Program-made: the position numbers and the translations under genes | Notes under the pieces: model-generated | Databases searched by the model: none | Seen by the model: only the letters and a program-made list of their open reading frames with translations | What the model was told of the DNA's origin: nothing | Shown: in pieces, positions 264-25,067 of the stretch | Layout of the letters: each line of letters opens with the position of its first letter | Numbering within the stretch: the first letter of the stretch is position 1 | NCBI GenBank assembly: GCA_034421495.1 | Contig: DAOUKI010000119.1 | Coordinates: 1 to 45,999 of the forward strand | Length of the DNA stretch: 45,999 nucleotides | Reading direction: 5' to 3' | Source of the DNA: Dehalococcoidia bacterium | GTDB lineage: Bacteria > Chloroflexota > Dehalococcoidia > Lucifugimonadales > QGNO01

Positions 264-615
264 CCGGGATTCCCGGTGGTGCGTCGGCCAGACGACTCCT
301 CGGCTTGCGCACCTCCGCCCTGTTGAGCCATACTACTCGTGACCGAGGGCCTGCTAGGCTGCCAGCTTCCCCAACCACATCTCGAAGACGGTGCCATCTA
401 CCGTCCCCTCAGGCCCACCACTATACAACTCCTCCCTGTCCCCAGTGGTCCATAATGTCCCCAGTCTATGCCTGAGAGATGCCTTCGATGCTTGTTCGGT
501 TCCGATTCATCGGACGTCATCTGGGATATCGTAGTCTCTGAAGCCGGTGCTGAATTGAGTGAGTCATTGGAAACTCGCTGATGCTTGGTCAGCTTCTGCA
601 AGTGTTCAGTGAGAA

Positions 616-624
616 TGATATACT
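616..624 (+). promoter_or_regulatory. Candidate extended -10 promoter element (TGaTATACT) upstream of the giant operon
   Basis: TG-a-TATACT lies at 616-624, about 72 nt upstream of ATG 696, in a locally AT-richer 430-nt non-coding stretch. No convincing -35 was seen. Motif match only. Confidence 0.25.
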
Positions 625-695
625 CGTGCCAAATCCACGCCTTCCCACAAACCCAATTCACGACTGCCGGAAAAGGGTGTGAATAGGATAGCGGC

Positions 696-3600
696 ATGCG
701 CAGGTTGACCAAGAACCTAGCGGAACTGATGTCTGGCAACCCGTCGCGGCAAGCCGGTCTGGTTCTTATGCTCACTGTGGCGTTGGCGGGGTTCTTTCTT
801 CTCATAGAATTCCTGGCGTCCCTGCTCTCCTCCGGCCCTCAAGATATCTTGGCGGTGGCGCCAGGGCAGGAGGCCACATTCGGGCTGCCCAACAGTGTTG
901 GGTTACTTGAGGCCGGAGTTCTTGTCCTATCTCTCGCAGTAGCCCTTGCTGTCCTCATAGCCTCAGTACGGTGGCCACTGGCAAGGGCATCGTTCAGGCC
1001 ATATTTGTCTCTCATATTGGCTATTCTGTTCGCAATCACCCTAGTCGGCGTCGGTGTGTACCTCGCCTTCTCGGATATGCTTGGGCAGGGGCTAGATTAC
1101 AGCGAACATACAGTCGATCGATCTATCCTGAAACCGGCAGGCTTGGCAGTGCTTGCCCTCATTTCTCTAACCCTGATCGTTGCCGGGTTCATCAACCGGT
1201 ACGCTCTGGCGCTGCTCGTTGTGGCCTGGGTGTCCGCTGCCGCAATATTCGGGTTCCTGGATATACGATCCTTGCATGGTTTGCATCTGTTCGAGCGTCC
1301 GGACAGGCTGGAGACGCCTAGTACCTACACCGAGATCGTCAAAGATTTTCAACGCCCGGATGCCTTGCCGGTTGAAGCGGGCACCTTGCCGGTCGAAATC
1401 GAGGTCCCGCATCAGCAGGACGCTCCTACATTCGTCATCTCTGTCACGGCTGAGCAGTCCGAGGTGCCGATTCCGGAGCCTGTGTTCTGGGTCTCGGGAG
1501 CGGACCACACTACCTACCTCCGAACTGCCACCGGTGACGTGTACGAGCAGGGCAGGTGGTGGCAAGTGGATCCGCTGCACCTTCTGGTAGAGGATGACGG
1601 TTCTATACCTGAGAATGTTGTTGCCGCTATAGAAGAGGCGAGAGCTGAGCCGGCAGGATCTTTGCCGCCGGAGCGCTTGGACGCTTCGCTCCTTGCTTGG
1701 TCCACAGTGGAGCCAGTCGAGTCCGTGTGGGATTTGATAGCCATTACAGCCTTCTACGAGGGGACCGCGTTTAGCGATGGTGTCGTGCCCAACGTCAATC
1801 ACCTGGTGGGCGTGAACACTCCGGCAGCGTACTATCCGTTCAGCGCCACCTTGCGTCTGGAGGGGCCGGTCCACAGATATCAACTTGCGATGTCCATCCC
1901 CCATTTTGATCCCGACGACGTATTGGGTGCTGCACCGAGCAAGGATTTCTTGTACCTACATCTTCCAGAAGACCTGCCAGCGCGCGTGCTAGAGCTTGCT
2001 GAGCAATTCAAGGGTGATGAGTCCCCGTATGTTAGAGCTAACCAGATAAACCGTTACTTGCGGGAGAAATTCGCATTTTCCACCCTTGAGCCAGATGAGG
2101 AGTCTATTGAACGCCCTACGGGCCGCGACCCGGTTGATTGGTTTCTCTTTGAGCGCCCCGTTGGCGATAGCGCCAACTTCAGCAGCGCCTTTGTGATCCT
2201 GGCGCGTGCAGCCGGGATACCGGCAAGAGTGGTCTCCGGGTGGGCCATAAAGAGAGATGCGGGGCATCAAGTTGTTACCGCCGATCAGGCGCATCAGTGG
2301 GCAGAGATAGCCCTGGATGGCATTGGCTGGGTCACCTTTGATCCGACACGCCAGGACGCCTCTCCACTCAGAGGGGAGGATCAATCACTGCCGTCACTGC
2401 TAGAGGAGCTGACCGACAGCGAAGACCCGGGTATCCGTGAGGACGCCGCACACACCCTTGGCGACCTCGGTGAAGCTGAGGCTCTGCCCGCGTTGTTGGA
2501 TGCCTTCCGCAACGATGGGTCAGCAGCCGTCCGGCTGGCCGCGGGGACGGCCATTCACAAGATAGGAATAGAGGACCTGATTCGTATTCTGCTGTACCAC
2601 GAAGATCCGCCGGTGAGGGCAGCGGCGGCGGAAGCCCTGGGGGCCTTTCGCGTTTCCGAGGCCGTTGATGTGCTGCTTCAAGCGTTGTCGTCGGATGTGG
2701 ACGCGCGGGTCAGGACGGCGTCGATCAGGGCATTGGAGGAGATAAGCGGTGAAGCAGCTGAGATAGGTGTGTTGCAGGCGGCGTTGGAGGATGAGGAGGT
2801 CAGTGTTAGGGAAACAGCGGTTCGTGCTCTGGGCAATATGAAGGCACAGTGGACGGCGGAGGAAATCGTGACCCTGCTCAGGGAGGATACCAACGCTGTG
2901 ATACGCGAGGCTGCTGCCTGGACGCTGGGAGAGCTAAAGGAAGCCGTTGCCCTACAGCCCCTGATTGACGCTAGGGATGACCGGGTGGAGGCGGTCAGAG
3001 AGGCGGCAGCGGAAGCCTTGCGGAAATGGCTCATACCCGATTTGGCAGCCATTCTGCAGGAGGCCGATGACCCGGTGCAACGAGCGGCTGTCGCCAAGGT
3101 TCTTGGTGAGACTGGAGAGATAGCTGCGGTGCCGCCATTGAACTGGGGATTGAACGATCCTGTTGACGACGTAAGGAGTGCAGCGTCCGATGCACTGAAT
3201 TCCATGGGGGAAATCACCATCTTAGAAAATGGAAGCGGGCTCTTGACCGCTGGCAGGGGCAGAGCATTCGTCTCCGGTACTACCACACAGGCGCGGCCTC
3301 AATCTCCCGTGACTCCCATCTTTGCCGTAGAGGGCGCCGCCCACACCAGATATCTCCGAACCGGCGTCGGCGACATCTACGACAACGGTCGGTGGCTTGC
3401 GGAAGAGCAAACCGGCTTCCCCTACGAGAGTACCTCCGACATTGTTTCCTCCACAGTTGAGGCAGTTGAAACTCATAGGGAAGAAATTACCGTCTCAGGC
3501 TTGGACAGCAGTCAGCTCATACCGGCGGGGATAGTACCCACGTCCAAGCTCTTGCAACGGGTTGGAGTCAGTGGGACGTTCTGGCAACCGAGCGCTACGT

Positions 3601-6600
3601 TTTCCCGTCATTCCTTTAGTAACAGATACACTTGGTATTCGATTGTAGATGAGTATTCCGAGGCCCGACTCAACGCTGCTGGGAAAGCAACCGGCTTGGC
3701 CAACGCCCCGTACATCTCGCTCCCGGAATGGGCACGTAGCGGCCGCATCTACGACCTAGCCATTGAGATCACCGCAGGGCATTCGACTCCTTACTCACAG
3801 GCTAAGGCAATTGAGCGATACCTGAGGACGGAATACGCTTACCGAGCCCCCGAAACGTCACGTGACGGGGCGCCACCAGCGGGGCAGGACCCGGTGGACT
3901 GGTTCCTATTTGACAAACGGGAGGGCACGTGCGGCAACTTCAGCAGCGCCTTCGTCTTCCTTGCCAGGGCCATAGGCCTACCGGCCAGAGTGGTTTCCGG
4001 CTGGGCAATAGGGATAACGCCCAGCCGGCAGACTGTCTCTTCTGACCAGGCACATCAGTGGGCCGAGGTAGCGTTCGAGGGACTGGGATGGATAGATTTC
4101 GATCCTACGCCTGGGGGGCCGCGGGCGCGCGCCGCTCTGGAGACTCTGTCCGGAGGGAACCCGGATGCGATAGAAGACGCTCTGGAAGCATTGGAGGAAG
4201 CCGGCGAAGAGGTGGTCAGACTAGAAAACGGCGGGGCAATACTGGAGAAGGGTGGCGAACGGTACTTTATCCCAGGCACCACTACCGCGCCGTCGTCTGG
4301 GATACCGGAAACCCCTCTATTTCAGATAACCGGCGCGGCCAATACCGGCTATCTTCGCACCTCGGTAGGTGATTTGTATCAGGGTGGAGGTTGGAGGCAG
4401 CTCGATCCGGTGAGCGTCGACGTAGTTCCTGACACCAGTATCTCAGGCGCCACTTGGACTCAATACAGACAACCTGACAGTGAATTTGGCCAGTTGCCTC
4501 CGCAAAGACGAAGTGATGTGTCCCTCTTTGGCTTCAGGACGGGTGGGCATGTCAGCCGGACGGACAACATCCAAATGACACCGATAGAATCAACAGGGAA
4601 CCTGCCAATTGGCCGTGCCCCAATATCACCAGACCTGCAACGGACAGAGAGACAAGGCGTCTACTATCCCTTTAGCTCAACGTTTCGTTTGCACGAAGAA
4701 GTGTCCACCTTTTCCTGGACATCCAGCATTGTGTCCTATCGGGCTCAAGATCTCGAGCAGGCCAATGTTGCGGATGACCCCACGTACCTTCAGCTTCTGC
4801 CAGACATGCCGCCACGCATCAAGGAACTGGCCGAGCAGATCACCTCCGGCTATACCTCGCCGTATGCCAAGGCCAAGGCGCTGGAAGCGTACTTAAAGAC
4901 CGAGTATACCTACAGGCTTGCCGATAGTCTCGACGATTTTCCTCCACCGGGCCGCGACCCAGTCGACTGGTTCCTGTTTGACCATCGTGAGGGCACGTGC
5001 GGCGTGTTCAGCAGCGCCTTCGTCGTGATGGCCCGCTCCGTGGGCATCCCGGCCAGGGTAGTCTCAGGCTGGGTCGTATCCCAAACGGCAGGCACACAGA
5101 CCGTCCGCGCCAACCAAGCGCACCAATGGGCGGAGGTAGCGCTTGAAGGGATTGGATGGGTCTCGTTTGAGCCCACACCACCAGGGGGCGCTCCATCGCG
5201 GGCACAGGATGGCTTGGACTCTGAGGCGGTAGCAGACGTTCTGGGGGCCTTGGATGAGGGGGATCCTGAGGCGATATCGGATGCTCTGGAGGCCCTGGTT
5301 GAAGGGGGGTCAAGTGGGGGAGGCTCAGGAGAGTTAGAAGACCCGCTGGAAGCCTTGGAGGAAGCCGGGGTGGACGTGGTTAGGCTGGAGAACGGCGGGA
5401 CTATCATCTCCGAGGATGAGAACAGCTTCTCGAATCCCGGTACGACGACAGAGCAGGCTTTCAAGCCCCCACACATTCCTGTCTACATCGTCAGCGGCGC
5501 CGACGGCACGTCTTACCTGCGCATGGCCACAGGCGACGTGTATGAGGAGGGCGGCTGGCGGCAACTGGATCCTATCCGTATTGAGGAGCGTCCCCAAGAG
5601 CGCGTGCCCGAAGCGCTGCAGAGGGAGTACACAAGCGGCGCGTTCAGCACCTTGCCCCCAGAAAGACGCAGCGACCCTGCGTTCTTCGGTATCAGAGATA
5701 GCGACACTCAAGAGAGCGAGGTCTTGATCCGCGTGCAATCAGCGAATCCGGATAGGCCCATTCCGGCCGGGGTCATACCCGTTTCGCCCGACCTGCAGGA
5801 CTTCCGGCATGACGAAGTCTACTATCCCTACAGCGGCACCCTCCGCACGCCGCACCGGAAGTCGGACTATTGGTACCTTACCAAAGTGCAGCACTTCACA
5901 CTCGGCCAACTTCGCCGGGCAGATGCCGCATCCGACCCCACGTACCTCCAACTCCCGCCGGACCTGCCGGACCGCGTCCGGCAATTGGCCGAGCATGTCA
6001 CTCAAGGCCACACCACGCCTTACGAGAAGGCGCGGGCGCTGGCAGTCTACCTCAGAACAACCTACCCATACCGCTTCGCAGACGGCCCGGAGGACAGGCC
6101 TCCCCCCGGCCACGACCCGGTCGACTGGTTCCTCTTCGACCATCAGGAGGGCACATGCGGAGTGTTCAGCAGCGCCTTCGCAGTCATGGCCCGCGCCGCC
6201 GGCATCCCCGCCCGGGTCGTCTCTGGCTGGCCAGTCATCCCCACCCCCGACCTGCAGACCGTATACACAGATCAGGCGCACCAGTGGGCGGAGATTGCGT
6301 TGGAGGGCATAGGCTGGGTGACGGTTGAGCCAACGCCATCCGACGGTGCACCGTTACGGGCCCGCAACTTTGCCGGAGGGAACGTTCCTAACCCACCTGT
6401 TATATCGGGTGGCGGCCCCAACCCTGGAACCACGGTTTTGCAACCAGTGCAAACCTACACCGCCATCACCCAATCGCCCGCTGAGGTACGAGGGGGGCAA
6501 GCGTTCATGGTCAGTGGCACAGTGAGCACCGCCGCGGGCCACGCCGTGGACGACATGCGCGTGGAGATCTTCGCCAACAAGACCCAAGAGCGTGGGGGCA

Positions 6601-9600
6601 GGCTGATTGGGATCGCTGTGACCCGCTCCGGGAGTTGGAGCACCGCAGCCCAAATGCACCTCGACATGGAGGCAGGCACATACCAACTCCTCGCCCGGGC
6701 GGCAGATAACGACGACTTTGGCCAGTCTTGGAGTGAGCCGGTCATCGAGATAAAGCTACGACAAGACACCGTGACCACGATCACTGAGTGGCCCGCCGAG
6801 GCCCGGTGGGAAGAACCGTTAACCGTGGCCGGTACAGTCAACACCATGGGTGGCCTTCCGGTAAGCGATATGTGGGTAGAGGTCTATGCTAACAAGACCC
6901 AAGAGCACGGGGGCAGGCTGATTGGGACCGCTGTGACCCGCTCCGGGCGTTGGAGCGTTGAAGTCCGAATGCCCCGTAACATGGAGACGGGCACATACCA
7001 GCTCTTCGCCCGGGCGGTAGAGGACAGCCGCTACAACGAATCTTGGAGTGAGCCGGGCATCGAGATGAAGCTAGGACAAGACACCGTGACCACGATCACC
7101 CAGTCGCCCACCGAGGTCCAGCGGGAGCAGCCGTTGACCGTGGCCGGTACGGTTAACACCGTCAGTGGGAGTCCGGTAAACGATATGAGGGTCGAGGTCT
7201 ATGTGAACGAGACCAAGGAGCACGGGGGCACGCTGATTGGGACCGCTGTGACGCATTCCGGGCAATGGAGCGCTGAAGTCCGAATGCCCGGCGACATGGA
7301 GCTAGGCGCATACCAACTCCTAGCTCGCGCTGTGGAGAACGACCACTTTTACGAGTCTTGGAGCGACCCAGACATCACAGTATACTCGGGGAGCGGCCTA
7401 GAGTTGACCGGTCCGACTACAGTTACGGTGGAAGACGACGCGGTGTTTGTCGGCCGGCTCTCGGATGACAGAGGCATGGGTTTGGAGGACCGCGAGGTAG
7501 TCGTATCTGTCGACGGGACCGTAACGGATTCGATCATGACCAGTCCCCAAGGCACCTTCACCTTCACGTTAGCCTTCTCTGAGTTGGGGCGGCACTGGGT
7601 TGATGTGGAGGTTGCCGAGATGGACTTTGTGCTGGGCAACAGCGTACGCATCGGCGTAGACGTGACGCTCCCGACTAAGATCACCCTTGAAGCCTCGGTC
7701 TCCGTGGAGATCGGCGAGGAGTTCCAAGTAACCGGCACGCTCCTGAGTGTGCGAGGAGAGGCCCTTGCGGATCGTCCTGTCGTTGTTAGTATTGGGGGGA
7801 GCCTCAAGCGACACCCCTTCACGGACGACGACGGAGCATTTGAGGTCCAGGGCAGATTGGGTACCCCAGGAGTCTACATTGTGCGCGCCGAGTTCGATAG
7901 AGACAACTGGGTGCTGGCTTCCACGGCTACTGCACGGTTGTTAGTCCGTGAGAGAGCGCTCCTGACTTTCGACGGGCCGAGCACCATTGATCTGGGAAGC
8001 GGTGGAATGTTCAGTGGCCTCCTAACCACCGCTGCGGGTGTGCCCATCCGCCAGTCGGCGCTGAGCATCGTTGATGCTAGCGACGCTGAGCTTGCCACGG
8101 TGACCACGGATGATGATGGCAGGTTTGAGTACCAGCATTCGTCCTTCCTCCAGACGGGACCGCAATCGATTACGGCCCGGTACCCAGGCGCAGACCTGGT
8201 ATTGCCAAGCTCGGCTAGGATTGCCTTCTCCGTGTTAGCTCAGACCTCTATGAATCTTGAGCTTCCAACTATTGCAAGAGACGGTGATTCGTTTATGTTG
8301 CATGGAAGCCTGAGAGACATCAACGGTGATCCGGTGCCGAATGTTGAGGTGGAGATTAAGGACGTGGGTACACGCACGCTGATGACCGATGCGGACGGCA
8401 AATTCAGTTGGGAGACCGTTGCCACGTTTGACGAAGGGGTAGCGGAGTCGGCTCACGAGTCTCACCTCTCCGTGGAGGTCTTCTTCTCTGGCACTGACCA
8501 CATGGCGCCATCTGCTGCATCTGCTGAAGTTGCTATTGGTGTTCCACGGATCCTTTTGGAGCCGTTGGAGCCTGTGGCGCGCGGAGACGCCGTTACTTTG
8601 CGAGGAACAGTGCTGCTGGGCAACCGCCCCATGACAGGCATAGATCTGGACGTGGCCGAACAAGACAGCGTACAGTCCGGCGCTGCCGGCGAATTCGCCT
8701 ACCGCTACCAGGTAGCCAGCGACCTTCCGCTTGGAACCAGCGATGTAACAGTCACCGCATCCGCTCTCGATGTAAGCGCTAGTGTGCCCCTGGAGGTCAG
8801 ATCCGCCGTAAGCATTGTTGTTACTCCAGTTGGGGAAGTCCGTCCCGGTAAAATGACGCTTCTACAGGCTGCACTACAGGACGACCGGCGGGCGCCTATC
8901 GCTGGCGCCGCTGTGCGTTCCGACGACGGCGTGGAGGTTGTAACAGATGACCTTGGCGTCGCGTTACTAGAACTTACGGTGCCTGACGATGAAGATGCTT
9001 CGGCCTTCTTTATCACTTTGACCTTTGACGGCAACGACCAGCACATGCCTCGCACATATTTTGTCGGTGTCCCACTCTCCCCGTCGGCTGGACTTAACTG
9101 GTTCTTATGGGCTGGCGCCGCAAGCGGTGTTGCCGTACTTGTTGCCGCTGTCTACACAGGAAGGAAGGTGCGCTATGTGCCGCTGCCAGCCCTCCTCCGA
9201 CGGCGTAGGGTGACCGCGTCGCCTGAGGCAGAGTCGGCCTCTGCCCTAGGTGCGGAAGACCTCACCCAAGAAGAGCCAACCGAGCCTGGCGCGCAGGTCA
9301 CTCTGGAAGTGGGTTTCAATAAGGCGGCGGATCTGCCTGACGTCTGGGGCGTGGGTGAGGACGTCACAATCACAGTGACAGTTCTTGACGTCGAAGGACA
9401 GGCCAGAGCCAGCACAGAGATCGTGGTTGCTGTGGCAGACGAAGAGCCGATGGCGCTAGTAAGTGGCGACGATGGGGCTTGCACCTTGCACTGGACCGCC
9501 TCCGAACTGGGTCAACACACGGTGTCGGCAGCGTTCGCAGGTGACGAGGATCACCCGCCTGCCTCTGAATCTCGGAACTTCCGGGTGGTAGATTTCAGGG

Positions 9601-9845: not shown

Positions 9846-9848
9846 AAG

Positions 9849-12284
9849 GTGGTAAGCGTTATCCACACCTACCGACTGCCGCTGACGGCCCTTCTCTTGG
9901 GAACGGGTATTGTTGCCACATTCCTGCTGTTCTGGAGATCGACCGGCTTACTCTCCACCTGGATAGGCTTTGACATCGGCTTCCTGTGGACACCACTTGC
10001 CATCTGGACGTGCCTGCTGCTGCTCAGCCGATTCGAAGCGCCTGCGGGCCGTAGGGAGCCGGATGGATTGGCTTGGCGACGGCTATTCTCAGCGTTGCCT
10101 TTCGTGCGGAGGCTCCTGTCTGATCTGGCGTGGTTTGCGCTCGTGATAGGACTGCTGAGCGCCGCCCCAACCATGGTCTCCGCTATCTCCAACCGACCTG
10201 GCGGTCCGGAACTTGCATCATTTGAAAAGTATGTCCAAGTGTTCAGCTCTATGGCTCTCTGGGGCAGCGTTGTGCTGGCTCCCGTTGCGGTTATGCGTGC
10301 TATAGCCGAGGTACGTCCAGGCTTTAGGGTACTGCTGATCTCCCCATGGTGGCGCCTAGCGTTCATTGGAGTTAGCTATATCCTCTTGGCAAACGGGGGC
10401 GTGCTCAACGTCGCCTTTGGCTTCCAGGGTTTCATCCTCTGGCTGGCACTTACCGTAGCGGTCGCCCTTGCCTACGTCGCTCTGGTCATTCGCAACAGAC
10501 TCAACCAGCCACTCAAACCACGGATGTTGTTCCTGCTCCGTGTGCAGCTCCTGTTCATAGAGGCGACGTGGATCCCCGTAGCGTTAGTCGCGGTGATAGT
10601 GCTGCCTTCGATGGTGGAGTCCGTGTTGGTCGGCCATTTTGCATTGGACCCTGATACCGCCGCCGCTTACGCGGAGAGCCTTGGAGCGCTGACATCGACA
10701 CAAGCGTTCGCGGTGATGCTGCCCTTCGCGCTGGTGCGCACGGTCGGGGTCTTCTGGCCCGCTGTGGGCCGAATTCTGGGGTTCCCCGTCGGGCGGCTAG
10801 CTCTGGTGGGCGTCGTTCATGTCATATTCTCAGAGGGCGGCGTTCTCTGGGTTGCCTTTGAGGTATCCTTCTCGCAGCTCATGGCCTCCTTAACGCTGGC
10901 CCTGGCTCTCTCTTATGCGGCATCAATCATACGCAACATTGCGGATATCCGGTTTTCAGGCCGCTTTGGGACGGCGGCAACTACGGCCCTCTCAATTATG
11001 AGTTCCGCAACAGCCGCCCTCGCCGCGGGTCTAGCTGTGTGGAGTATAGTCAATCACTTGCCGGTCGCCAATGCGGCGCTCCTTGACCATGGAGCTACAC
11101 GGTATCTTGGCCAACGGTTGCTACCATATTTCAGCCTGTTATTCGACTCACGGTTCACCATCACGGCCCTTGGCATGGCACTGACTTTTGCCCTGAGCCA
11201 ACCGTGGCCATGGAGAGATGAGGCCGTAACACGTCGCCGGCTCCTGTTCAACACCTTGTGCTATGGTGTAGGAGGTTACTTCGCTTGGGTGTTGGGTATC
11301 ATCCTCTCACCTCTGGGGCACGGCTTTGTACTAGCGGGCGTGGCCGTAGCATTGGGCATGTTCGCGCTTGGACTCGCGCAAGCCTTGCAATGTGCCACCT
11401 TTCCCTACAACACTGCGCTAACCCAGATAGTGAGTCGTCTCACGGCGTCGAGAGTGCGCGTATTTGTTCTGGGAGCGACCCTCGCGTTCTACGGTCTGCT
11501 GCTGCGCCCCGCTCTTTATGAGGTTTTGTGGTTCGCCGCCTTATACGAATACATCGCGCTGTTAGCCCTGCTGGCGCTGGTTCTGATCTTCGTGACGGAT
11601 CTGCTGAGGCGGACTGCAACTGCCCAGACGGTTGAAGTAGCTGAGTGGAGTAACTGGTCTCACCACCAGCAGACGCTGGAGAGCAAGGATGACCCCCGGT
11701 CCGCTATGACATCGGCCATGCGGCAAGATTTCCTAGACCGCCTTGACTGGAAGCCGCTGTGGACGTACCTCATGGGGCTACTCTGTCGAAATGGTGCATC
11801 CCTGGAGTGGATGTACGCCGTATGTCAACCACTGCGCGCAAGTGCAGTCTCCTCTTCCAAGCTGCGATTTCTCAGATGGAGAAATCGTGGGCGCATGGGC
11901 AGAATTGCCACGTTAGAAGATGCACTACGGCGTACAGACAGCGCGTTAGCTGCAACAGAGGCGCCAGTGCAACCGATTACTAAGGAGGAGTTGCTCCGGG
12001 CCGCGGCGCCGTTTGTTGATACGGGTGTCGAAGTCGAGCGGTTCGTTGTCGCGCTAATTGCGGCCCACTACCGGCAGGGCGACGATCTTCAGCGCGCCAT
12101 TGACCGATGGTTTCCGCTTCTCAACTCGCCTGACCACTCGGTTGGACGTATTGCTCTGCCTTGGTCCCGTTCACGCGCCAGAGTTCGAGGCCGAGAAGAG
12201 CGTGATAGTCTTGTCAACGGCGCCGTAGAGATGCTATTTGACAACGCGACTTCAGCTACTAATGACGCTAATGAAGCTTCTTGA
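9849..12284 (+). CDS. Polytopic integral membrane protein (811 aa), no recognisable family; membrane part followed by an Arg-rich soluble C-terminal region of about 220 aa
   Basis: GTG 9849 lies 3 nt after the giant gene's TAG (9843-9845) and 6 nt after GGAGGAG (9836-9842). Many hydrophobic segments span the first about 590 aa. There is an internal duplication with a 147-aa period: RLAFIGVSYILLANGGVLNVAFGFQGFILWLALTVAVALAYVALVIRN (from nt 10353) versus RLALVGVVHVIFSEGGVLWVAFEVSFSQLMASLTLALALSYAASIIRN (from nt 10794). Confidence 0.8.
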   Translation: MVSVIHTYRLPLTALLLGTGIVATFLLFWRSTGLLSTWIGFDIGFLWTPLAIWTCLLLLSRFEAPAGRREPDGLAWRRLFSALPFVRRLLSDLAWFALVIGLLSAAPTMVSAISNRPGGPELASFEKYVQVFSSMALWGSVVLAPVAVMRAIAEVRPGFRVLLISPWWRLAFIGVSYILLANGGVLNVAFGFQGFILWLALTVAVALAYVALVIRNRLNQPLKPRMLFLLRVQLLFIEATWIPVALVAVIVLPSMVESVLVGHFALDPDTAAAYAESLGALTSTQAFAVMLPFALVRTVGVFWPAVGRILGFPVGRLALVGVVHVIFSEGGVLWVAFEVSFSQLMASLTLALALSYAASIIRNIADIRFSGRFGTAATTALSIMSSATAALAAGLAVWSIVNHLPVANAALLDHGATRYLGQRLLPYFSLLFDSRFTITALGMALTFALSQPWPWRDEAVTRRRLLFNTLCYGVGGYFAWVLGIILSPLGHGFVLAGVAVALGMFALGLAQALQCATFPYNTALTQIVSRLTASRVRVFVLGATLAFYGLLLRPALYEVLWFAALYEYIALLALLALVLIFVTDLLRRTATAQTVEVAEWSNWSHHQQTLESKDDPRSAMTSAMRQDFLDRLDWKPLWTYLMGLLCRNGASLEWMYAVCQPLRASAVSSSKLRFLRWRNRGRMGRIATLEDALRRTDSALAATEAPVQPITKEELLRAAAPFVDTGVEVERFVVALIAAHYRQGDDLQRAIDRWFPLLNSPDHSVGRIALPWSRSRARVRGREERDSLVNGAVEMLFDNATSATNDANEAS

Positions 12285-12340
12285 GCATATTCAATACGGA
12301 CAGAATCAATATCTTCCATTGAAAGGGTGGCATCCCACAG

Positions 12341-13327
12341 ATGAACGAGCAACAACTAGAAGAGGCTCGCCTCTCCTGCGAGCAGATCATAGACCGCGTA
12401 GCTGAGACGTTCGTGGGCAACCGACTGCTACTGCGCAAGCTGCTGGCGGCGGCGCTCGCCAACGGTCACGTCCTCTTTGAGGACTACCCGGGTCTGGGCA
12501 AGACCTTGCTGGCCAAGCTCTTTGCGCGGTCCATTGGCGGCGATACGAAACGGGTGCAGTTCACACCCGACCTTCTGCCCTCAGACGTACTGGGAGTGAA
12601 CATATGGCGGCAGAACGTTGGCACGTTCCAACTGATGCGCGGGCCGGTGTTCACCAATGTTCTTTTGGCCGACGAGATCAACCGCGCACCGCCCAAGACA
12701 CAGTCCGCTTTGCTGGAAGCGATGGAGGAGCGTCAGGTCACCATAGATGGGGACACCATGCCTCTGGGTTCCCCGTTTGTGGTAATTGCAACGCAGAATC
12801 CCATAGAACAGGAGGGCACTTACCCCCTGCCGGAGGCGCAACTCGACCGCTTCCTGCTCAAGTTGTCCACCGGCTATCCGACCAGTGACCAGATGGAGGA
12901 GGACATCCTGCTGCGACGCATCCAGTGGCAGAAGGACGACCCCTCCACTGAGATGGAACCAGCGGTGGGGATCAACCGCTTTGTGGAGCTACAACGCGCT
13001 GTGGAGACCAGCGTGCATACTGAACAGGTCATAGTGGAGTACATCACGAAAATAGTCAGGCTCTCCCGAGAGCACACGCGAGTCGCCGTAGGCGTCAGCC
13101 CTCGTGGGGGCCTTGCGCTCCTTCGGATTTCTCGGGCCATCGCGCTCATACACGGACGCGACTTCGTCGTGCCGGACGACGTCAAGATGGTTGTCTCCGA
13201 CGTGTTGGCCCACCGGGTCATCCTGAACATCGAGGATACGCTGGAGGGCGCCAGTGGTGAGTCAGTTATTGAGGAGATACTGGCGCAGGTGCCCGTACCC
13301 ACTGACTTAGGACGGATGGACGGTTAG
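12341..13327 (+). CDS. MoxR-family AAA+ ATPase
   Basis: Walker A YPGLGKTLLAK. The MoxR-typical RVQFTPDLLPSDVLG. Walker B/sensor LLADEINRAPPKTQSALLEAMEERQVTIDG. VIATQNPIEQEGTYPLPEAQLDRFLLKL. Size of 328 aa is typical. Confidence 0.92.
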   Translation: MNEQQLEEARLSCEQIIDRVAETFVGNRLLLRKLLAAALANGHVLFEDYPGLGKTLLAKLFARSIGGDTKRVQFTPDLLPSDVLGVNIWRQNVGTFQLMRGPVFTNVLLADEINRAPPKTQSALLEAMEERQVTIDGDTMPLGSPFVVIATQNPIEQEGTYPLPEAQLDRFLLKLSTGYPTSDQMEEDILLRRIQWQKDDPSTEMEPAVGINRFVELQRAVETSVHTEQVIVEYITKIVRLSREHTRVAVGVSPRGGLALLRISRAIALIHGRDFVVPDDVKMVVSDVLAHRVILNIEDTLEGASGESVIEEILAQVPVPTDLGRMDG

Positions 13328-13329
13328 CT

Positions 13330-14658
13330 ATGTCGCAGCCGTCTCACGTTATCTGGATTGCGCTGTCTTTGGTCCTGCTGTTGCTTGGCCTCTCCTTGGG
13401 CAACGTGCTCCTTCTCACTGTGGCAGTGTTCGTCTTACTCACAACGCTGTTGACTACTGCTCTGCCGCCGCCCTCCGGCATAGTCGTGGAGCGGGAGTTG
13501 CCCCGTGCCGTGTTCTGGGTAGGCGACACACTGTCAGTACGACGGGAGCTATCAGCCGAGAGAGGAATTGGCCCCATCTTTGTGCACGACGATCTACCCA
13601 CCGAAGCTGAAGTGGTACAGGGAAGCAACCTACGCGTAGTCTGGAAGTGGCCCGGCAGGTTGAATGTAGACATCTCCTACCAAGTGCGATTCCCCAAACG
13701 AGGACTGTATGTGCTGCCAGAGTCCAATTGGGAGTCGCGGGCGCCCTTTGGAGCTAGCCGGGGCATCTCTGGGGTCAGTGGGTCGGCCTTCGAACTATCT
13801 ATCGTCCCAAGGATTCGCAACGTGACCCTACTGAACGATATTCGAGTGGTCCGCCGCATCGACCGCCAGCAAGACGACCTGGCCCAGACTGGGGCCGCCA
13901 TGGACGAATTCAAGGAACTGCGCCCCTATCAGCCTGGGGACTCGTTCAAACGGATCAACTGGAAGGCCAGCGCTAGGGTAGCTGGCGCGAACAGCAGTCC
14001 TCTTGTGAATGAGTTGGAGCCCGATAACAAGAGGGGGGTCTGGATCTTCCTAGACATTGCTAACTACATGGACGTGGGGGTGCCACTATGGAACCCGCTG
14101 GAGAGTACGGTAGAAGCCTCAGGCACTCTGGCGCAGTACTACCTCTCACGAGGTTCGACACTTGGCGCGTACGCCTATAACGATTCCAGCGGCGCGGGAG
14201 AATTGCTGACGCCGGAGACAGGGAAGCGCCAGTTTAATCGTCTGATGGAGATGCTGACCGGTCTTAAGCCGGGCCCTGCAAGGCAGGACCTCCTGCAATC
14301 CGTAGAGCGCTGCAAGAGTTTCTTATACCGTATCAAGCCCGATGTCTTCATCATCACTCGATTGGATGTCCACTACGTACGGCCGGGTGAGGACGCAGCC
14401 AGGTTGGAGCGGTTGAAGACCGCCATCAGAGGACTGATCTCCCTGAGGCCACGCTCTATGGGGCCTAGCCGGGTGCGAGTGGTACACGTGGGGCCACTGG
14501 AAGCTCAGTCACCCTCAAGCGGACTGGGGCTGACCCGATGGGAAACAGTTCACGTAGCCAGAGAACTGCGCGAGAAGGGAGCTTACGTCATTGAGTGGGA
14601 ACCGGAACGTGAAGAGTTCACGTCAGTGCTGGTACGGCACATTAGTGTTTACAAGTAA
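13330..14658 (+). CDS. DUF58 domain protein (VWA-fold MoxR partner), with N-terminal TM hairpin
   Basis: ATG lies 2 nt after the MoxR TAG. N-terminal hydrophobic IWIALSLVLLLLGLSLGNVLLLTVAVFVLLTTLLT. DUF58 signature FKELRPYQPGDSFKRINWKASARVAG...PLVNELEPDNKRGVWIFLD. Confidence 0.85.
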   Translation: MSQPSHVIWIALSLVLLLLGLSLGNVLLLTVAVFVLLTTLLTTALPPPSGIVVERELPRAVFWVGDTLSVRRELSAERGIGPIFVHDDLPTEAEVVQGSNLRVVWKWPGRLNVDISYQVRFPKRGLYVLPESNWESRAPFGASRGISGVSGSAFELSIVPRIRNVTLLNDIRVVRRIDRQQDDLAQTGAAMDEFKELRPYQPGDSFKRINWKASARVAGANSSPLVNELEPDNKRGVWIFLDIANYMDVGVPLWNPLESTVEASGTLAQYYLSRGSTLGAYAYNDSSGAGELLTPETGKRQFNRLMEMLTGLKPGPARQDLLQSVERCKSFLYRIKPDVFIITRLDVHYVRPGEDAARLERLKTAIRGLISLRPRSMGPSRVRVVHVGPLEAQSPSSGLGLTRWETVHVARELREKGAYVIEWEPEREEFTSVLVRHISVYK

Positions 14659-14678
14659 GCAAGGGAGAGCTGGATAGC

Positions 14679-15263
14679 ATGAGGATCGTCGTCGTTGAGA
14701 CGCTGCTGCTAACCGGCCTCTTGTTGCTCGCCAGTTACGTGGCGTGGGACGCCGGCCCCGCACTTGGGCTGCCGGAGTCCCACTGGCTCAACTGGCTTGC
14801 CGGCCCGCTAACCTGGTCAATGACCTTGGAAGTGTTGCTGGTTGTTTTGTTGCTGGTCGCTGCGTACTGGGCACTGCAAGCGCTGGGGTACAATCAACTC
14901 CCTTTCTGGCTGATAGCGTTGCTCGCTATCCTGCCTCACAGTGTACCGGCCTGGGGACACAACCAACTCAAATGGTACGAGCTCTTCGGACTGCGACTTG
15001 AGCTGATAGGTGAGAGGTTCCTGTTCTGGGACGCGGCGCTGTTCCTTGCGGTTCTAGCCGGCCTCATTGCCCTGTATCGTTTGATGGGCTTACGTAATTT
15101 GGTGCGACGAATGGTGCTCCAAGGGATATCGGAATCAGACAGGCGCCAGGTCCTGCAATACGAGGCCCTTTTGCTAGCGGGCCTGCTTGCTGCCGGGCTG
15201 CTATTGGCGCTCTTCACGGTCCTTGTGGCAGCACTGCTCGGCCAATACGGCGAATTCATTTAG
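14679..15263 (+). CDS. Small integral membrane protein (194 aa, about 5 TM), last gene of the operon
   Basis: ATG 14679 is preceded by AGGGAGAG. Translation is dominated by hydrophobic helices: VVETLLLTGLLLLASYVAW, LEVLLVVLLLVAAYWAL, FWLIALLAILP, ALFLAVLAGLIALY, LLLAGLLAAGLLLALFTVLVAALLG. No family recognised. Confidence 0.7.
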   Translation: MRIVVVETLLLTGLLLLASYVAWDAGPALGLPESHWLNWLAGPLTWSMTLEVLLVVLLLVAAYWALQALGYNQLPFWLIALLAILPHSVPAWGHNQLKWYELFGLRLELIGERFLFWDAALFLAVLAGLIALYRLMGLRNLVRRMVLQGISESDRRQVLQYEALLLAGLLAAGLLLALFTVLVAALLGQYGEFI

Positions 15264-15391
15264 TGATCACCACCTGCTACCCCAGTCCAAGCGGCACTTG
15301 GTATGAGTTCAGGGAATCTCCTTGCTCTCCACACCGAAAGCCTGTCGTAGTTAGCCTCGGAACTGTAGATGTGTGACATGGGCTTGACTAA

Positions 15392-15408
15392 TAACGATAT
15401 TATCGTTA
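15392..15408. promoter_or_regulatory. Perfect 17-bp palindrome TAACGATA-T-TATCGTTA, candidate operator overlapping the ribosome-binding region of the HTH-MIPS gene
   Basis: Read directly: taacgatattatcgtta at 15392-15408. It abuts the AGGA (15408-15411) that precedes ATG 15420 by 8 nt. The palindrome is certain; the operator function is inference. Confidence 0.45.
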
Positions 15409-15419
15409 GGATAGCCGCC

Positions 15420-17920: not shown

Positions 17921-18031
17921 CCCATGATACTACGAAAGCGGAACCGGTAGAGGTGGATAATAGGGTCGCATGCAATATAATTAATGTAACAACTGTTGAG
18001 GTTGGCTCTGAACGTCCCAGGAAGGAAAACT

Positions 18032-24365: not shown

Positions 24366-25067
24366 TTATCCACGAGTATCTGGACAGTTGGGTAGGGCCC
24401 CATTGGCGGTTAAGGGAGGCCAGAATTCCTTGATGTCCTTCCAAGTGAGCACGTTGTTCTCACTCATCCAGCACTGCTGAAGAAGGAATTTCACCTGACC
24501 AAAGTTCATCGTGTGATCCCTATCATCCGCAACTACAAACTGGACTACTTTCTTTTTGTTTCCAAGAATGTTGAGTAGAACCTTAGTCGTCACGTACTGA
24601 CGAATGAGTTGATGCACTAATACGTCACTTGTGTCAGAATTATCAAACCCTGTCTCATGCTTAGCTTCCCCAATGAAGAGGTGATTTGGAGTTTCCAGAA
24701 CGATGTCTATTTCAGTATTGCCCAGGTTGTTTCTCAAGTTAACCTCTTGGTTTGCCTGGGATGGGTTGTAGTTGAAAGACTGCGAGGTTTGCAAGTGTGA
24801 GAAACTAAGAATGTTATTACTCAAGTGAGGAAAAAGACAGTCGTACCGTTCTGCAAGATCCTTTTCGTCTCCTATACCATCAGAAGCAAAGTGATCCCGT
24901 ATCCCATACCAGAACAGGTTAATGCAAACTTCACTCGCTTGAGTCTCATCGGGCTCACCGAGTCTCCTAGCCAGTCTCAAACGAGCGTCCTTGCACCTGA
25001 AGAATGGCGCAAAATAGTACGCCGTCTTCCAGTTCTCAGTTCTGTTTTCTATACCCAGAATCTTCAT
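24366..25067 (-). CDS. Hypothetical protein with a PD-(D/E)xK-like nuclease motif, encoded on a markedly AT-rich segment
   Basis: ATG 25067 is preceded by a strong SD, AAGGAGGG (25073-25080 on the minus strand), embedded in the last codons of the upstream gene. ...NTEIDIVLETPNHLFIGEAKHETGF... has the D-x(12)-E-x-K spacing of restriction-endonuclease-fold enzymes. No wider family recognised. Confidence 0.55.
   Translation of the reverse strand: MKILGIENRTENWKTAYYFAPFFRCKDARLRLARRLGEPDETQASEVCINLFWYGIRDHFASDGIGDEKDLAERYDCLFPHLSNNILSFSHLQTSQSFNYNPSQANQEVNLRNNLGNTEIDIVLETPNHLFIGEAKHETGFDNSDTSDVLVHQLIRQYVTTKVLLNILGNKKKVVQFVVADDRDHTMNFGQVKFLLQQCWMSENNVLTWKDIKEFWPPLTANGALPNCPDTRG

What the first reader, a model, noticed from the sequence alone, without database searches (positions are those of the whole stretch)
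696..15263. Five-gene coupled operon: 3,049-aa quadruple-transglutaminase envelope protein, 811-aa orphan membrane protein, MoxR AAA+, DUF58 and a small membrane protein
Seen in sequence: five same-strand ORFs are separated by only 2-56 nt (TAG-aag-GTG at 9843-9851; TAG-ct-ATG at 13325-13332). This makes one transcription unit of about 14.6 kb.

Established: MoxR-class AAA+ ATPases are habitually encoded next to DUF58/VWA-fold partners. A MoxR, DUF58 and transglutaminase/DUF4129 membrane-protein neighbourhood recurs widely without an assigned function.

Unusual here:
- The transglutaminase partner is inflated to 3,049 aa, with four complete modules at about 1479-2348, 3315-4109, 4314-5177 and 5478-6335. 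Each module opens with a conserved P(V/I/L)(F/Y)x(V/I)xGAxxTxYLR..(T/V)GD(V/I/L)Y..G.W lobe and ends in a transglutaminase core.
- A HEAT solenoid and about ten Ig-like domains are added.
- The triad is interrupted by a family-less 811-aa polytopic membrane protein and closed by another membrane protein.

Inference: this is an ATPase-assisted system that assembles or activates a giant envelope-anchored cross-linking or protease-like scaffold. I know of no characterised example of this architecture.
Basis: partly seen in the sequence, partly recalled or inferred. Interest (0 to 1): 0.75.

Follow-up and report, generated by a model that had tools for sequence, protein, structure and literature searches.

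The report
Giant multi-transglutaminase MoxR–DUF58 envelope operon
This is a real, conserved five-gene operon of uncultured Dehalococcoidia (Chloroflexota) that is an inflated version of the widespread but functionally unexplained MoxR ATPase–DUF58–membrane transglutaminase (TgpA-type) system, so it is a new variant of a known kind and not a wholly new machine.

Summary
Five same-strand ORFs lie at exactly the stated coordinates, with gaps of 3, 56, 2 and 20 nt. Pfam confirms four Transglut_core domains, a HEAT block, Ig-like arrays and a C-terminal DUF4129 in the 3,049-aa protein, plus MoxR (AAA_3) and DUF58.

The five genes are syntenic in every sufficiently complete locus from about 20 Dehalococcoidia genomes, many of them closed chromosomes. 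The giant ORF is therefore not an assembly artefact.

- **Module 1 is a pseudo-enzyme.** It has Ser in place of the catalytic Cys. Modules 2–4 carry C-H-D, C-H-E and C-H-E.
- **Four modules is not unique.** 24 of 108 giant homologues have four; three is typical.
- **The 811-aa protein is not family-less and does not interrupt anything.** Its C-terminal half is homologous to about 400-aa 'UCP019236' proteins. These occupy the same slot in simpler Chloroflexota cassettes: a single-module 1,000–1,250-aa TGase, UCP019236, MoxR, DUF58 and a small membrane protein.

Topology and architecture copy Pseudomonas TgpA (5 TM, outside domain, TM, cytoplasmic DUF4129). Function is inferred, not shown: extracytoplasmic thiol modules act on envelope proteins, controlled from the cytoplasm by MoxR–DUF58 through the highly conserved DUF4129 tail. 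No literature describes this variant.

The parts
696..9845 (+). G1: 3,049-aa TgpA-architecture giant membrane protein (5 TM, about 2,600-aa extracytoplasmic loop, TM6, cytoplasmic tail)
   Evidence: ORF; Pfam; TM and charge pattern; orthologues of 2,452-3,172 aa.
759..1265 (+). N-terminal bundle of five TM helices (aa about 22-190). N-terminus inside by the positive-inside rule.
   Evidence: Hydropathy and sequence. No Pfam hit, including no TgpA_N hit.
1407..2390 (+). Module 1: N-lobe plus Transglut_core with Ser in place of the catalytic Cys (S-H-D). Pseudo-enzyme.
   Evidence: Cys-less in all syntenic orthologues and most of the giant family.
2391..3221 (+). HEAT / PBS-lyase-type alpha-solenoid (aa 566-842)
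   Evidence: HEAT_2 7e-48, HEAT 1e-35, HEAT_PBS 9e-19.
3222..4160 (+). Module 2: N-lobe plus Transglut_core with a complete Cys1079-His1120-Asp1136 triad
   Evidence: PDB 6g49 (TgpA) E 1e-14; the lobe gives a weak TgpA_N match at profile positions 219-323.
4221..5219 (+). Module 3: N-lobe plus Transglut_core, Cys1435-His-Glu
5385..6383 (+). Module 4: N-lobe plus Transglut_core, Cys1821-His-Glu
6420..9092 (+). Array of about nine Ig-like / CarboxypepD_reg / MG-like beta-sandwich domains. It includes three tandem 105-aa copies (aa 1909-2223; 315-nt DNA period).
   Evidence: This is the most variable part between orthologues (17-18% identity).
9093..9161 (+). TM6 (aa about 2800-2822), followed by RKVR...RRRR on the cytoplasmic side
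9291..9842 (+). Cytoplasmic tail: one Ig-like domain (Big_3_5) plus DUF4129 with a conserved FEEADYS motif. This is the best conserved segment of G1.
   Evidence: DUF4129 26.7 bits against cut-off 24.8; 64-71% identity against 40-50% elsewhere; homologous to the tails of single-module TGases (phmmer 6e-28 and 1e-39).
9849..12284 (+). G2: 811-aa polytopic, all-helical membrane protein with a hydrophilic C-terminal region. The Shine-Dalgarno sequence GGAGG lies inside the end of G1.
10101..10964 (+). Internal tandem duplication in G2 (aa about 85-225 and about 231-372)
   Evidence: hhalign probability 99.7%, E 1.6e-25.
11244..11966 (+). UCP019236 (PF27715)-like region of G2 (aa 466-706)
   Evidence: hhalign 97.4%, E 1.2e-11 against the L034 431-aa protein; the G2 profile hits 385-431-aa proteins at positions 430-710, and the four whose contigs were looked up include three annotated PF27715 (none on record for P0175).
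12341..13327 (+). G3: MoxR-class AAA+ ATPase. Walker A G51-L-G-K-T55, Walker B D111-E112, sensor-1 N153, Arg170.
   Evidence: AAA_3 9e-64 and AAA_lid_2 6e-23; PDB 2r44 1.5e-76; motifs read from the sequence; 78-99% identical in orthologues.
13330..14658 (+). G4: DUF58 protein with an N-terminal TM hairpin and a VWA-like region
   Evidence: DUF58 4e-13; hallmark ELRPYxPGD..INWKASAR; beta1 'WIFLD' and beta4 'ITRLD' aspartates conserved, DxSxS serines absent.
14679..15263 (+). G5: 194-aa four-TM protein. Small clade-restricted family, no Pfam.
   Evidence: Always follows DUF58.

Best explanation
The locus is a lineage-specific, inflated version of the MoxR-DUF58-TgpA-type membrane transglutaminase system, found in Dehalococcoidia and more widely in Chloroflexota.

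Shown:
- G1 has the TgpA plan: five N-terminal TM helices, an extracytoplasmic lobe plus Transglut_core, a sixth TM helix and a cytoplasmic DUF4129.
- The single catalytic unit has been multiplied to four. One is a Cys-less pseudo-module next to the membrane. Three keep a thiol triad (C-H-D, C-H-E, C-H-E).
- A HEAT solenoid and about nine Ig-like domains have been added.
- G2 (an expanded UCP019236-type membrane protein), MoxR, membrane-anchored DUF58 and a small polytopic protein are fixed partners.

Inferred:
- The five products form one membrane complex.
- The outward-facing Cys-His-Glu/Asp modules covalently modify proteins of the cell envelope or surface layer, by cross-linking or by isopeptide/amide cleavage.
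- The pseudo-module, HEAT and Ig domains hold or space substrates.
- On the cytoplasmic side, the DUF58 VWA-like domain grips a peptide of the complex. The most likely target is the strongly conserved acidic DUF4129 tail of G1.
- The MoxR hexamer uses ATP to remodel that peptide. This assembles the giant loop or switches it on across the membrane ('inside-out' control).
For: Architecture and topology:
- The 5+1 TM pattern, with positive charges on the predicted cytoplasmic loops and after TM6, is.
- The closest solved relative is the periplasmic domain of TgpA (6g49, E 1e-14).
- TgpA is a six-TM inner-membrane protein whose outward-facing TGase domain is active in vitro. It is co-transcribed with PA2875-PA2874 (PMC3507681).

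Catalytic competence:
- Only 4 Cys occur in 3,049 residues, and 3 of them are the predicted nucleophiles.
- C-H-E or C-H-D is kept in the distal modules of nearly all of 108 homologues. The median is 3 Cys per protein.

One unit:
- All five genes are syntenic with different flanks in 20+ loci, including closed chromosomes.
- Gaps of 2-56 nt are kept.

Ancestry:
- Single-module cassettes exist in other Chloroflexota: TGase of 996-1,243 aa, UCP019236, MoxR, DUF58 and a small TM protein.
- The TGase tails are homologous, and G2 is homologous to UCP019236 proteins.

Cytoplasmic interface:
- The conservation gradient is MoxR 78-99% > DUF58 57-81% > G2, G5 and G1 at 35-79%.
- Within G1, the DUF4129 tail is 64-71% identical, against 40-50% for the modules and 17-18% for the tandem Ig copies.

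General MoxR-VWA mechanism: the VWA domain captures a peptide and MoxR releases it remodelled (PMC7159879; PMC3893208).
Against: - No experiment or expression data exist for any member.
- The chemistry (cross-linking, proteolysis or deamidation) cannot be told from sequence.
- Glu replaces the canonical Asp in modules 3-4.
- A few homologues have no Cys in any module, so catalysis is not universally required.
- DUF58 here lacks the DxSxS serines of a canonical MIDAS (D-x-A-x-Y). Metal-dependent peptide capture is therefore uncertain.
- The contact between DUF58/MoxR and the DUF4129 tail is inferred only from conservation and location.
- The N-terminal TM bundle does not match the TgpA_N profile.
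- Structure predictions gave no support: G2 pLDDT 62 with no fold match, module pLDDT 44.
Confidence: 0.6

Rival explanations
1. The giant is a non-catalytic surface scaffold or adhesin. The TGase-like modules, HEAT and Ig domains serve only as binding surfaces, for example to anchor an S-layer or attach to particles or other cells. MoxR-DUF58 only helps fold and insert this very large membrane protein.
For: - Module 1 is Cys-less in the window, in every syntenic orthologue and in most of the 108 surveyed giants.
- The second module is often S-H-D.
- Some homologues are SHD-SHD-SHD or AHD-AHD-AHD.
- HEAT and Ig arrays are typical binding or spacer elements.
- The tandem Ig copies are hypervariable between orthologues.
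Against: - Three of the four cysteines in 3,049 residues sit exactly at the nucleophile position.
- 193 of 335 modules in the family keep Cys with His and an acidic third residue.
- His and the acidic residue stay conserved even in the Cys-less modules.
Confidence: 0.15
2. The cassette is a MoxR-vWA type conflict or defence system (in the sense of Kaur et al. 2020), in which the giant protein is a sensor or effector deployed against invaders or competitors.
For: - MoxR also passes the bpMoxR (PF20030) cut-off (32.1 against 27 bits).
- In L003 the cassette lies between a methylase/XhoI pair and a GmrSD gene. Transposases flank it in L002 and L037.
- Flanks differ in every genome.
- The giant's Ig region diversifies fast.
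Against: - PADLOC finds nothing except a generic HEAT match.
- There is no VMAP, iSTAND, beta-propeller or FtsH third component.
- There is no effector displacement. The architecture is constant across more than 100 homologues.
- MoxR and DUF58 are highly conserved.
- Homology to the essential housekeeping protein TgpA.
Confidence: 0.07
3. The 9.1-kb ORF is an assembly chimera or repeat expansion, and the 'operon' is a chance juxtaposition.
For: A short-read scaffold of the same sample ends inside G1 exactly where the 315-nt tandem repeat starts.
Against: - Full-length orthologues of 2,452-3,172 aa occur on closed or Mb-scale long-read chromosomes with the same five-gene order.
- Internal DNA repeats are only 66-81% identical.
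- The reading frame is uninterrupted for 9,150 nt.
Confidence: 0.02

Closest known systems
TgpA (PA2873) and its PA2875-PA2874-tgpA transcription unit in Pseudomonas aeruginosa (PMC3507681; structure 6g49)
   Same: - Five N-terminal TM helices, an outward-facing lobe plus Transglut_core, a further TM helix and a cytoplasmic C-terminal domain.
- Encoded with two upstream partner genes. That these are MoxR-like and DUF58 rests on my own knowledge; the paper does not state it.
- TgpA is the best PDB match of the window's modules (E 1e-14).
   Different: - TgpA is 668 aa with one catalytic unit. Here there are 3,049 aa with four units (one dead), a HEAT solenoid, about nine Ig-like domains and an extra cytoplasmic Ig.
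- Gene order is TGase first, not last.
- Two additional membrane proteins (G2, G5) are present.
- The TgpA_N profile does not match the TM bundle.
- The third triad residue is Glu in modules 3 and 4.
Single-module Chloroflexota cassettes (e.g. GCA_016210395.1 JACQUI010000278, locus L033; locus L034): TGase, UCP019236 (PF27715), MoxR, DUF58 and a small TM protein. Uncharacterised.
   Same: - Same gene order and same number of core components.
- Homologous TGase tail (Ig-TM-Ig-DUF4129), UCP019236-like region, MoxR and DUF58.
- C-H-E triad in L033.
   Different: - The TGase is 996-1,243 aa with one module and no HEAT.
- The UCP019236 protein is about 400 aa and lacks the duplicated N-terminal half of G2.
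- The small TM protein shows no detectable similarity to G5.
PFNA cluster of bifidobacteria (pkb2-fn3-aaa_atp-duf58-tgm; PMC8430577)
   Same: A MoxR ATPase, a DUF58 protein and a membrane transglutaminase-like protein are kept together with a large surface protein carrying Ig-like (FN3) domains.
   Different: - The Ser/Thr kinase and a separate FN3 protein are absent here. The Ig-like domains are fused into the TGase protein.
- Gene order differs.
- PFNA has no UCP019236-type or G5-type protein.
RL3499-RL3502 operon of Rhizobium leguminosarum (MoxR of the MRP subfamily; as cited in PMC3893208)
   Same: A MoxR-centred conserved operon whose loss affects membrane integrity and cell morphology. 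It is the best phenotypic precedent for an envelope role.
   Different: - It is a proteobacterial system with small proteins.
- The composition beyond MoxR is recalled from my own knowledge and was not checked here.
MoxR-vWA ternary conflict systems (PMC7159879)
   Same: A MoxR plus VWA-type co-chaperone pair with a third large, multidomain partner. These systems are common in Chloroflexi.
   Different: - No VMAP, iSTAND, beta-propeller or FtsH component.
- No variable effector domains on the VWA protein.
- Constant architecture.

Membership tests
MoxR AAA+ ATPase (Pfam AAA_3 PF07726 + AAA_lid_2) | AAA_3 and AAA_lid_2 profiles above the curated cut-offs | tested here: met
   213.7 bits against 27, and 80.7 against 22.7. 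PDB 2r44 matches at 1.5e-76.
MoxR AAA+ ATPase (Pfam AAA_3 PF07726 + AAA_lid_2) | Intact Walker A, Walker B, sensor 1 and Arg finger | tested here: met
   G51LGKT55, D111E112, N153 and R170, read from the translation.
MoxR AAA+ ATPase (Pfam AAA_3 PF07726 + AAA_lid_2) | Encoded next to a VWA/DUF58-type partner | tested here: met
   The DUF58 gene starts 2 nt after the MoxR stop. The pairing is kept in all loci.
MoxR AAA+ ATPase (Pfam AAA_3 PF07726 + AAA_lid_2) | ATP hydrolysis and hexamer formation | not testable with these tools
   Needs biochemistry.
DUF58 (PF01882) | Profile above the cut-off and the hallmark R-x-Y-x-x-G-D...I-[DN]-W-K-A-[ST]-A-R motif | tested here: met
   49.4 bits against 23.4. 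ELRPYQPGDSFKRINWKASAR is conserved in the alignment.
DUF58 (PF01882) | VWA-like domain with a metal-binding MIDAS (DxSxS plus distal Asp) | tested here: inconclusive
   Both aspartates are kept (WIFLD, ITRLD), but the motif reads D-x-A-x-Y and not D-x-S-x-S.
TgpA-type membrane transglutaminase (TgpA_N/DUF3488 + Transglut_core + DUF4129) | Transglut_core above the cut-off | tested here: met
   Four stretches of 83-104 bits each against a cut-off of 23.
TgpA-type membrane transglutaminase (TgpA_N/DUF3488 + Transglut_core + DUF4129) | Cys-His-Asp catalytic triad | tested here: inconclusive
   Module 2 is C-H-D. Modules 3 and 4 are C-H-E. Module 1 is S-H-D.
TgpA-type membrane transglutaminase (TgpA_N/DUF3488 + Transglut_core + DUF4129) | TgpA_N (PF11992) profile over the N-terminal five-TM region | tested here: not met
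   No hit for aa 1-250. The only hit is 16.8 bits (cut-off 30) to profile positions 219-323, on the lobe of module 2. Five TM helices are nevertheless present.
TgpA-type membrane transglutaminase (TgpA_N/DUF3488 + Transglut_core + DUF4129) | TM helix after the outside domain, followed by a cytoplasmic DUF4129 | tested here: met
   TM about 2800-2822 followed by RKVR..RRRR. DUF4129 scores 26.7 bits against 24.8 on the piece, and 20.5 on the whole protein.
TgpA-type membrane transglutaminase (TgpA_N/DUF3488 + Transglut_core + DUF4129) | Single catalytic unit, protein of about 650-750 aa | tested here: not met
   Four units in 3,049 aa.
UCP019236 (Pfam PF27715), for G2 | Match to the family profile | tested here: inconclusive
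   PF27715 is not in the local Pfam copy. Precomputed annotation gives '-' for G2 orthologues. However, hhalign to a PF27715-annotated protein gives 97.4%, E 1.2e-11 over aa 466-706, and the G2 profile retrieves such proteins at E 1e-12 to 1e-17.
UCP019236 (Pfam PF27715), for G2 | Position between the TGase gene and MoxR | tested here: met
   L030, L033, L034 and L035.
MoxR-vWA ternary conflict systems (Kaur et al. 2020) | Third component of VMAP, iSTAND, beta-propeller or FtsH type, and variable effector domains | tested here: not met
   No such Pfam domains in any of the five proteins. PADLOC is negative. The architecture is constant.
Bat-type aerotolerance operon (MoxR-DUF58-BatA/BatB VWA-TPR) | Membrane VWA proteins (BatA/BatB) and a TPR protein downstream of DUF58 | tested here: not met
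   G2 and G5 have no VWA or TPR hits.

The most novel reading that the evidence does not exclude
In Dehalococcoidia, a class with members reported to lack a peptidoglycan wall (my own knowledge, not tested here), this cassette could be the envelope-building machine. An array of extracytoplasmic thiol transglutaminase modules would stitch or trim a proteinaceous surface layer. It would be powered or gated across the membrane by a cytoplasmic AAA+ (MoxR) pulling, via DUF58, on the DUF4129 tail. That would give the first mechanism for the whole MoxR-DUF58-TgpA class: ATP-driven inside-out control of an extracellular enzyme.
Probability: 0.15. Interest if true: 0.8.

Novelty: new variant of a known kind. 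Interest (0 to 1): 0.5.

Why it matters
The MoxR-DUF58-transglutaminase neighbourhood is widespread, and TgpA is essential in Pseudomonas. Yet what the ATPase pair does for the membrane transglutaminase remains unknown.

The Chloroflexota series runs from a single-module 1,000-aa form to 2-4-module giants of 2,000-3,800 aa, always with the same four partners. This gives a natural comparative set with three uses:
- It shows which parts are fixed: the DUF4129 tail, MoxR, DUF58 and the UCP019236 core.
- It shows which parts are free to expand: the modules, HEAT and Ig domains.
- It points to the cytoplasmic tail as the likely ATPase client.

It also identifies two unannotated membrane-protein families as system components. 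The regular pattern of pseudo-module followed by active modules can be tested biochemically.

Tried and rejected
- **AlphaFold2 of module 2** with the four window modules as alignment: mean pLDDT 43.9, unusable, so no fold search was run.
- **AlphaFold2 of G2** with 12 orthologues: pLDDT 62, all-helical. Foldseek against the PDB gave nothing below E 0.2, with the best hit LYCHOS/GPR155 at TM 0.18-0.26. No fold assignment was made.
- **G2 as a fusion** of the 329-aa protein that precedes UCP019236 in L034 with a UCP019236 protein: rejected (hhalign probability 0.1%). The N-terminal half is an internal duplication instead.
- **G5 homologous to the small TM proteins of the single-module cassettes:** not detectable (probabilities below 1%). 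Only position and topology correspond.
- **NCBIfam:** no family for G2, G4 or G5. G1 gives only HEAT-type partial hits far below cut-offs.
- **PDB sequence search with DUF58:** no hit.
- **PADLOC:** no defence-system model matched.
- **Promoter and terminator scan:** counts are within, or only about 2 sd above, shuffle expectation, with no convincing site at the operon ends. The operon call therefore rests on spacing and synteny.
- **Literature searches:** UCP019236, Dehalococcoidia + transglutaminase, and DUF4129 + MoxR all returned nothing.
- **Not checked:** that PA2875 and PA2874 are MoxR and DUF58. The TgpA paper does not say so.

Full report
**1. The observation**

The window holds five + strand ORFs at exactly the stated coordinates:

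| Gene | Coordinates | Length |
|---|---|---|
| G1 | 696-9845 | 3,049 aa |
| G2 | 9849-12284 | 811 aa, GTG start |
| G3 | 12341-13327 | 328 aa |
| G4 | 13330-14658 | 442 aa |
| G5 | 14679-15263 | 194 aa |

- The junctions read TAG-aag-GTG and TAG-ct-ATG as described. Gaps are 3, 56, 2 and 20 nt, and a GGAGG sits just upstream of the G2 start.
- Consensus promoter and terminator scans add nothing beyond chance. The single-transcription-unit claim therefore rests on spacing and, more strongly, on synteny.
G3 has AAA_3 (9e-64) plus AAA_lid_2, and G4 has DUF58 (4e-13).
- G2 and G5 have no Pfam or NCBIfam family.

**2. Anatomy of the giant protein**

*Modules and domains*
- Self-comparison and a module HMM delimit four lobe-plus-core modules at aa 238-565, 843-1155, 1176-1508 and 1564-1896.
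- The HEAT block lies at aa 566-842.
- The Ig-like array lies at aa about 1909-2799. It includes three tandem 105-aa copies.
- The DNA repeats are only 66-81% identical, so they are old duplications and not an assembly artefact.

*Topology*
- Five hydrophobic helices (aa about 22-190) are followed by about 2,600 hydrophilic residues, a sixth helix (about 2800-2822) and then RKVRYVPLPALLRRRR.
- Charges on the short loops obey the positive-inside rule.
- The modules, HEAT and Ig array are therefore predicted to be extracytoplasmic. The last about 225 residues (one Ig-like domain plus DUF4129) are predicted to be cytoplasmic. DUF4129 scores 26.7 bits against a cut-off of 24.8 on the piece.
- This is the plan of P. 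aeruginosa TgpA: six TM helices, five of them N-terminal, with an outward-facing TGase domain that is active in vitro (PMC3507681).
- TgpA's periplasmic domain (6g49) is the best solved relative of the modules (E 1e-14).
- The lobe of module 2 gives a weak match to the soluble end of TgpA_N. The TM bundle itself does not match that profile.

**3. Catalytic residues**

- Alignment A1 shows that module 1 has Ser where modules 2-4 have the nucleophile Cys (GDSANFSSAF against GTCGNFSSAF).
- His is invariant (AHQWAE).
- The third residue is Asp in modules 1-2 and Glu in modules 3-4.
- G1 contains only four cysteines in 3,049 residues. Three of them are these nucleophiles.
- In the syntenic orthologues, module 1 is never Cys-bearing. 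The module after HEAT is often S-H-D. The last one or two modules are always C-H-E.
- In 108 giant homologues of at least 2,200 aa, module number is 2 (13 proteins), 3 (71) or 4 (24).
- The triads in these homologues are C-H-E 157, S-H-D 89, C-H-D 36 and A-H-D 20. The median is 3 Cys per protein.
- 'Quadruple transglutaminase' should therefore read 'one pseudo-module plus three thiol modules'. Four modules is a minority state but not a unique one.
- That C-H-E is active is an inference from the tolerance of papain-like folds for an acidic or polar third residue (my own knowledge).

**4. Conservation of the cassette**

- G2 has 31 close relatives in the 5.8-billion-protein index (39-100% identity, none with Pfam).
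- Contexts of three of them show the same five genes with unrelated flanks.
- A scan of species-representative genomes with the G2 alignment found 21 loci, all in Dehalococcoidia or Chloroflexota MAGs. Many are closed chromosomes.
- In every locus with enough flank, all five genes are present in order. Giants measure 2,452-3,172 aa.
- Identity to the window is MoxR 78-99%, DUF58 57-81%, G2 35-79%, G5 39-77% and G1 36-72%.
- Starting from the giant side, three further divergent giants (3,251, 2,333 and 3,639 aa) are also followed by a 756-819-aa Pfam-less protein, MoxR, DUF58 and a small Pfam-less protein.
- The giant family has at least 179 clusters of 2,000-3,800 aa. A few are named 'HEAT repeat domain-containing protein [Chloroflexota bacterium]' by NCBI.

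**5. What the 'orphan' G2 is**

- A profile search of 1.84 billion cluster representatives gave 215 hits. They include many 385-431-aa proteins matching only profile positions about 430-710.
- Four of these were looked up on their contigs. Three of the four carry the recent Pfam annotation PF27715 'UCP019236' (none is on record for P0175).
- Wherever enough flanking DNA was held, they lie between a gene ending in Ig-TM-Ig-DUF4129 and MoxR-DUF58-small TM protein.
- hhalign of the G2 alignment against one of them gives 97.4% probability (E 1.2e-11) over G2 residues 466-706.
- The upstream TGase genes in these cassettes encode 996-1,243-aa proteins with one module (C-H-E or C-H-D). In L033 the protein has the same 5+1 TM plan. 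Their tails are clearly homologous to the G1 tail (phmmer 6e-28 and 1e-39).
- G2 is therefore an enlarged member of an ancestral fourth component and does not interrupt the triad.
- Its extra N-terminal half contains a tandem duplication (aa about 85-225 and 231-372; hhalign 99.7%).
- That half is not related to the extra 329-aa protein of L034.
- An AlphaFold model of G2 is all-helical with moderate confidence (pLDDT 62) and matches nothing in the PDB.
- G5 belongs to a 26-cluster family restricted to the same clade. It has no detectable similarity to the small TM proteins of the simple cassettes.
- The window's G5 lacks the last helix that most orthologues have.

**6. The cytoplasmic pair**

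- G3 has an intact Walker A (GLGKT, 51-55), Walker B (DE, 111-112), sensor-1 Asn153 and Arg170. It matches the MoxR structure 2r44 at 1.5e-76.
- G4 has an N-terminal TM hairpin and the DUF58 hallmark ELRPYQPGD..INWKASAR.
- G4 also has a VWA-like segment in which the two strand-end aspartates (WIFLD, ITRLD) are invariant, but the DxSxS serines are replaced (D-x-A-x-Y) throughout the clade.
- Kaur et al. describe the two aspartates as the metal ligands. They note that some MoxR-associated vWA domains lack them and may use another mode of peptide capture (PMC7159879).
- MIDAS function here is therefore open.

**7. How it most likely works**

*Shown*
- The architecture, the predicted topology, the pattern of retained thiols, strict five-gene linkage, and descent from a single-module TgpA-like cassette.
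- A conservation gradient in which the cytoplasmic parts are most constrained. Within G1, the DUF4129 tail is 64-71% identical, the modules 40-55% and the tandem Ig copies 17-18%.

*Inferred*
- The five proteins form one membrane complex.
- The outward-facing thiol modules covalently modify envelope or surface proteins. The pseudo-module, HEAT and Ig domains bind or space substrates.
- The membrane-tethered DUF58 captures a peptide of the complex. The conserved acidic DUF4129 tail ('FEEADYS') is the best candidate.
- The MoxR ring remodels that peptide, following the general MoxR-VWA mechanism (PMC7159879; PMC3893208).
- This either matures the giant loop or gates its activity.

*Precedents for an envelope role*
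- TgpA is essential (PMC3507681).
- The R. leguminosarum MoxR RL3499 has a membrane-integrity phenotype (cited in PMC3893208).

*Confidence*
- About 0.8 that this is an expanded TgpA-type MoxR-DUF58 envelope system.
- About 0.6 for the statement as a whole.
- About 0.3 for the specific DUF4129-client step.

**8. Rivals**

- **Pure scaffold or adhesin role.** Favoured by the many Cys-less modules and by rare all-dead homologues. Disfavoured by the selective retention of nucleophile cysteines.
- **Conflict-system reading.** Suggested by the bpMoxR hit and by restriction or transposase genes beside some copies. Disfavoured because it lacks the defining third components, lacks effector variability, and has no PADLOC match.
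- **Assembly artefact.** Excluded by closed-genome orthologues.

**9. Comparison with known systems and novelty**

- The system works like, and descends from the same stock as, the TgpA/MoxR/DUF58 unit. It also parallels the bifidobacterial PFNA cluster (MoxR, DUF58, TGM plus an FN3 surface protein; PMC8430577).
- It differs in four ways: multiplication of the catalytic unit with a fixed pseudo-module, the HEAT insertion, fusion of the Ig array, and two extra membrane partners.
- It fails strict TgpA membership on the TgpA_N profile and on domain count.
- No paper in the searchable library links these elements in Chloroflexota.
- I rate it a new variant of a known kind, with interest 0.5. It is not a new principle. 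It is a well-populated, unannotated family that could help explain a long-standing orphan system.

Noticed in passing
window 14679-15263 (G5): The window's G5 ends about 30 aa before most orthologues, which carry one more TM helix (SPWA..IG.GA..LL.L.LLLW). A subclade of 191-aa forms shares the short end.
   Followed up: partly
L001 (ENA scaffold_2601, same sample) against window 6420-7363: A second assembly of the same organism ends inside G1 at aa 1918. This is within about 130 nt of where TRF places the start of the 315-nt tandem Ig repeat, and is where the Ig-like array begins. Short-read assembly breaks there, and the window bridges it.
   Followed up: partly
window 15369-16976: Myo-inositol-1-phosphate synthase (NAD_binding_5 1e-91) carries an N-terminal extension of about 95 aa. 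The extension gives weak Cro/YdaS-type helix-turn-helix hits.
   Followed up: no
window 17996-18790 and 18812-19546: Two tandem DUF3179 genes, followed on the opposite strand by an ABC ATPase and a MacB/FtsX permease (annotation of L001).
   Followed up: no
L003 76-1747 and 18638-19699; L002 1-700; L037 2594-3544: In some genomes the cassette sits next to restriction-modification genes (N6_N4 methylase + XhoI), a GmrSD_N gene or transposases. Flanking genes differ in every genome examined.
   Followed up: partly
L028 15288-18179 and 20250-22271; L005 18253-22379: Other very large Pfam-less or cadherin/PKD-rich ORFs lie close to the cassette in relatives: 963 aa, 2,667 aa and 2,713 aa.
   Followed up: no
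proteins P0242+P0262 (one 3.01-Mb contig) and P0259+P0317 (one 1.17-Mb contig): Some Chloroflexota genomes encode two giant multi-TGase paralogues. The P0262 copy has its own G2-like, MoxR, DUF58 and small-TM partners.
   Followed up: partly
giant homologues: A few giants have no cysteine in any module (patterns SHD-SHD-SHD and AHD-AHD-AHD). Ser is by far the commonest replacement of the nucleophile, which leaves open a Ser-His-Asp chemistry in those modules.
   Followed up: partly
window 398-805 (- strand): A 135-aa ORF overlaps the start of G1 by 110 nt and has no Pfam family, like the 115-aa ORF at 50-397. These are probably not genes, which would leave a long upstream non-coding region.
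   Followed up: no
window 25036-26574 (- strand): A 512-aa protein with a DUF2779 domain (1.5e-27). The rest of the window is housekeeping: adenylosuccinate synthetase, thiolase, PRPP synthetase, SecA, ValRS, a ROK kinase and a RecF/SMC-like ATPase.
   Followed up: no
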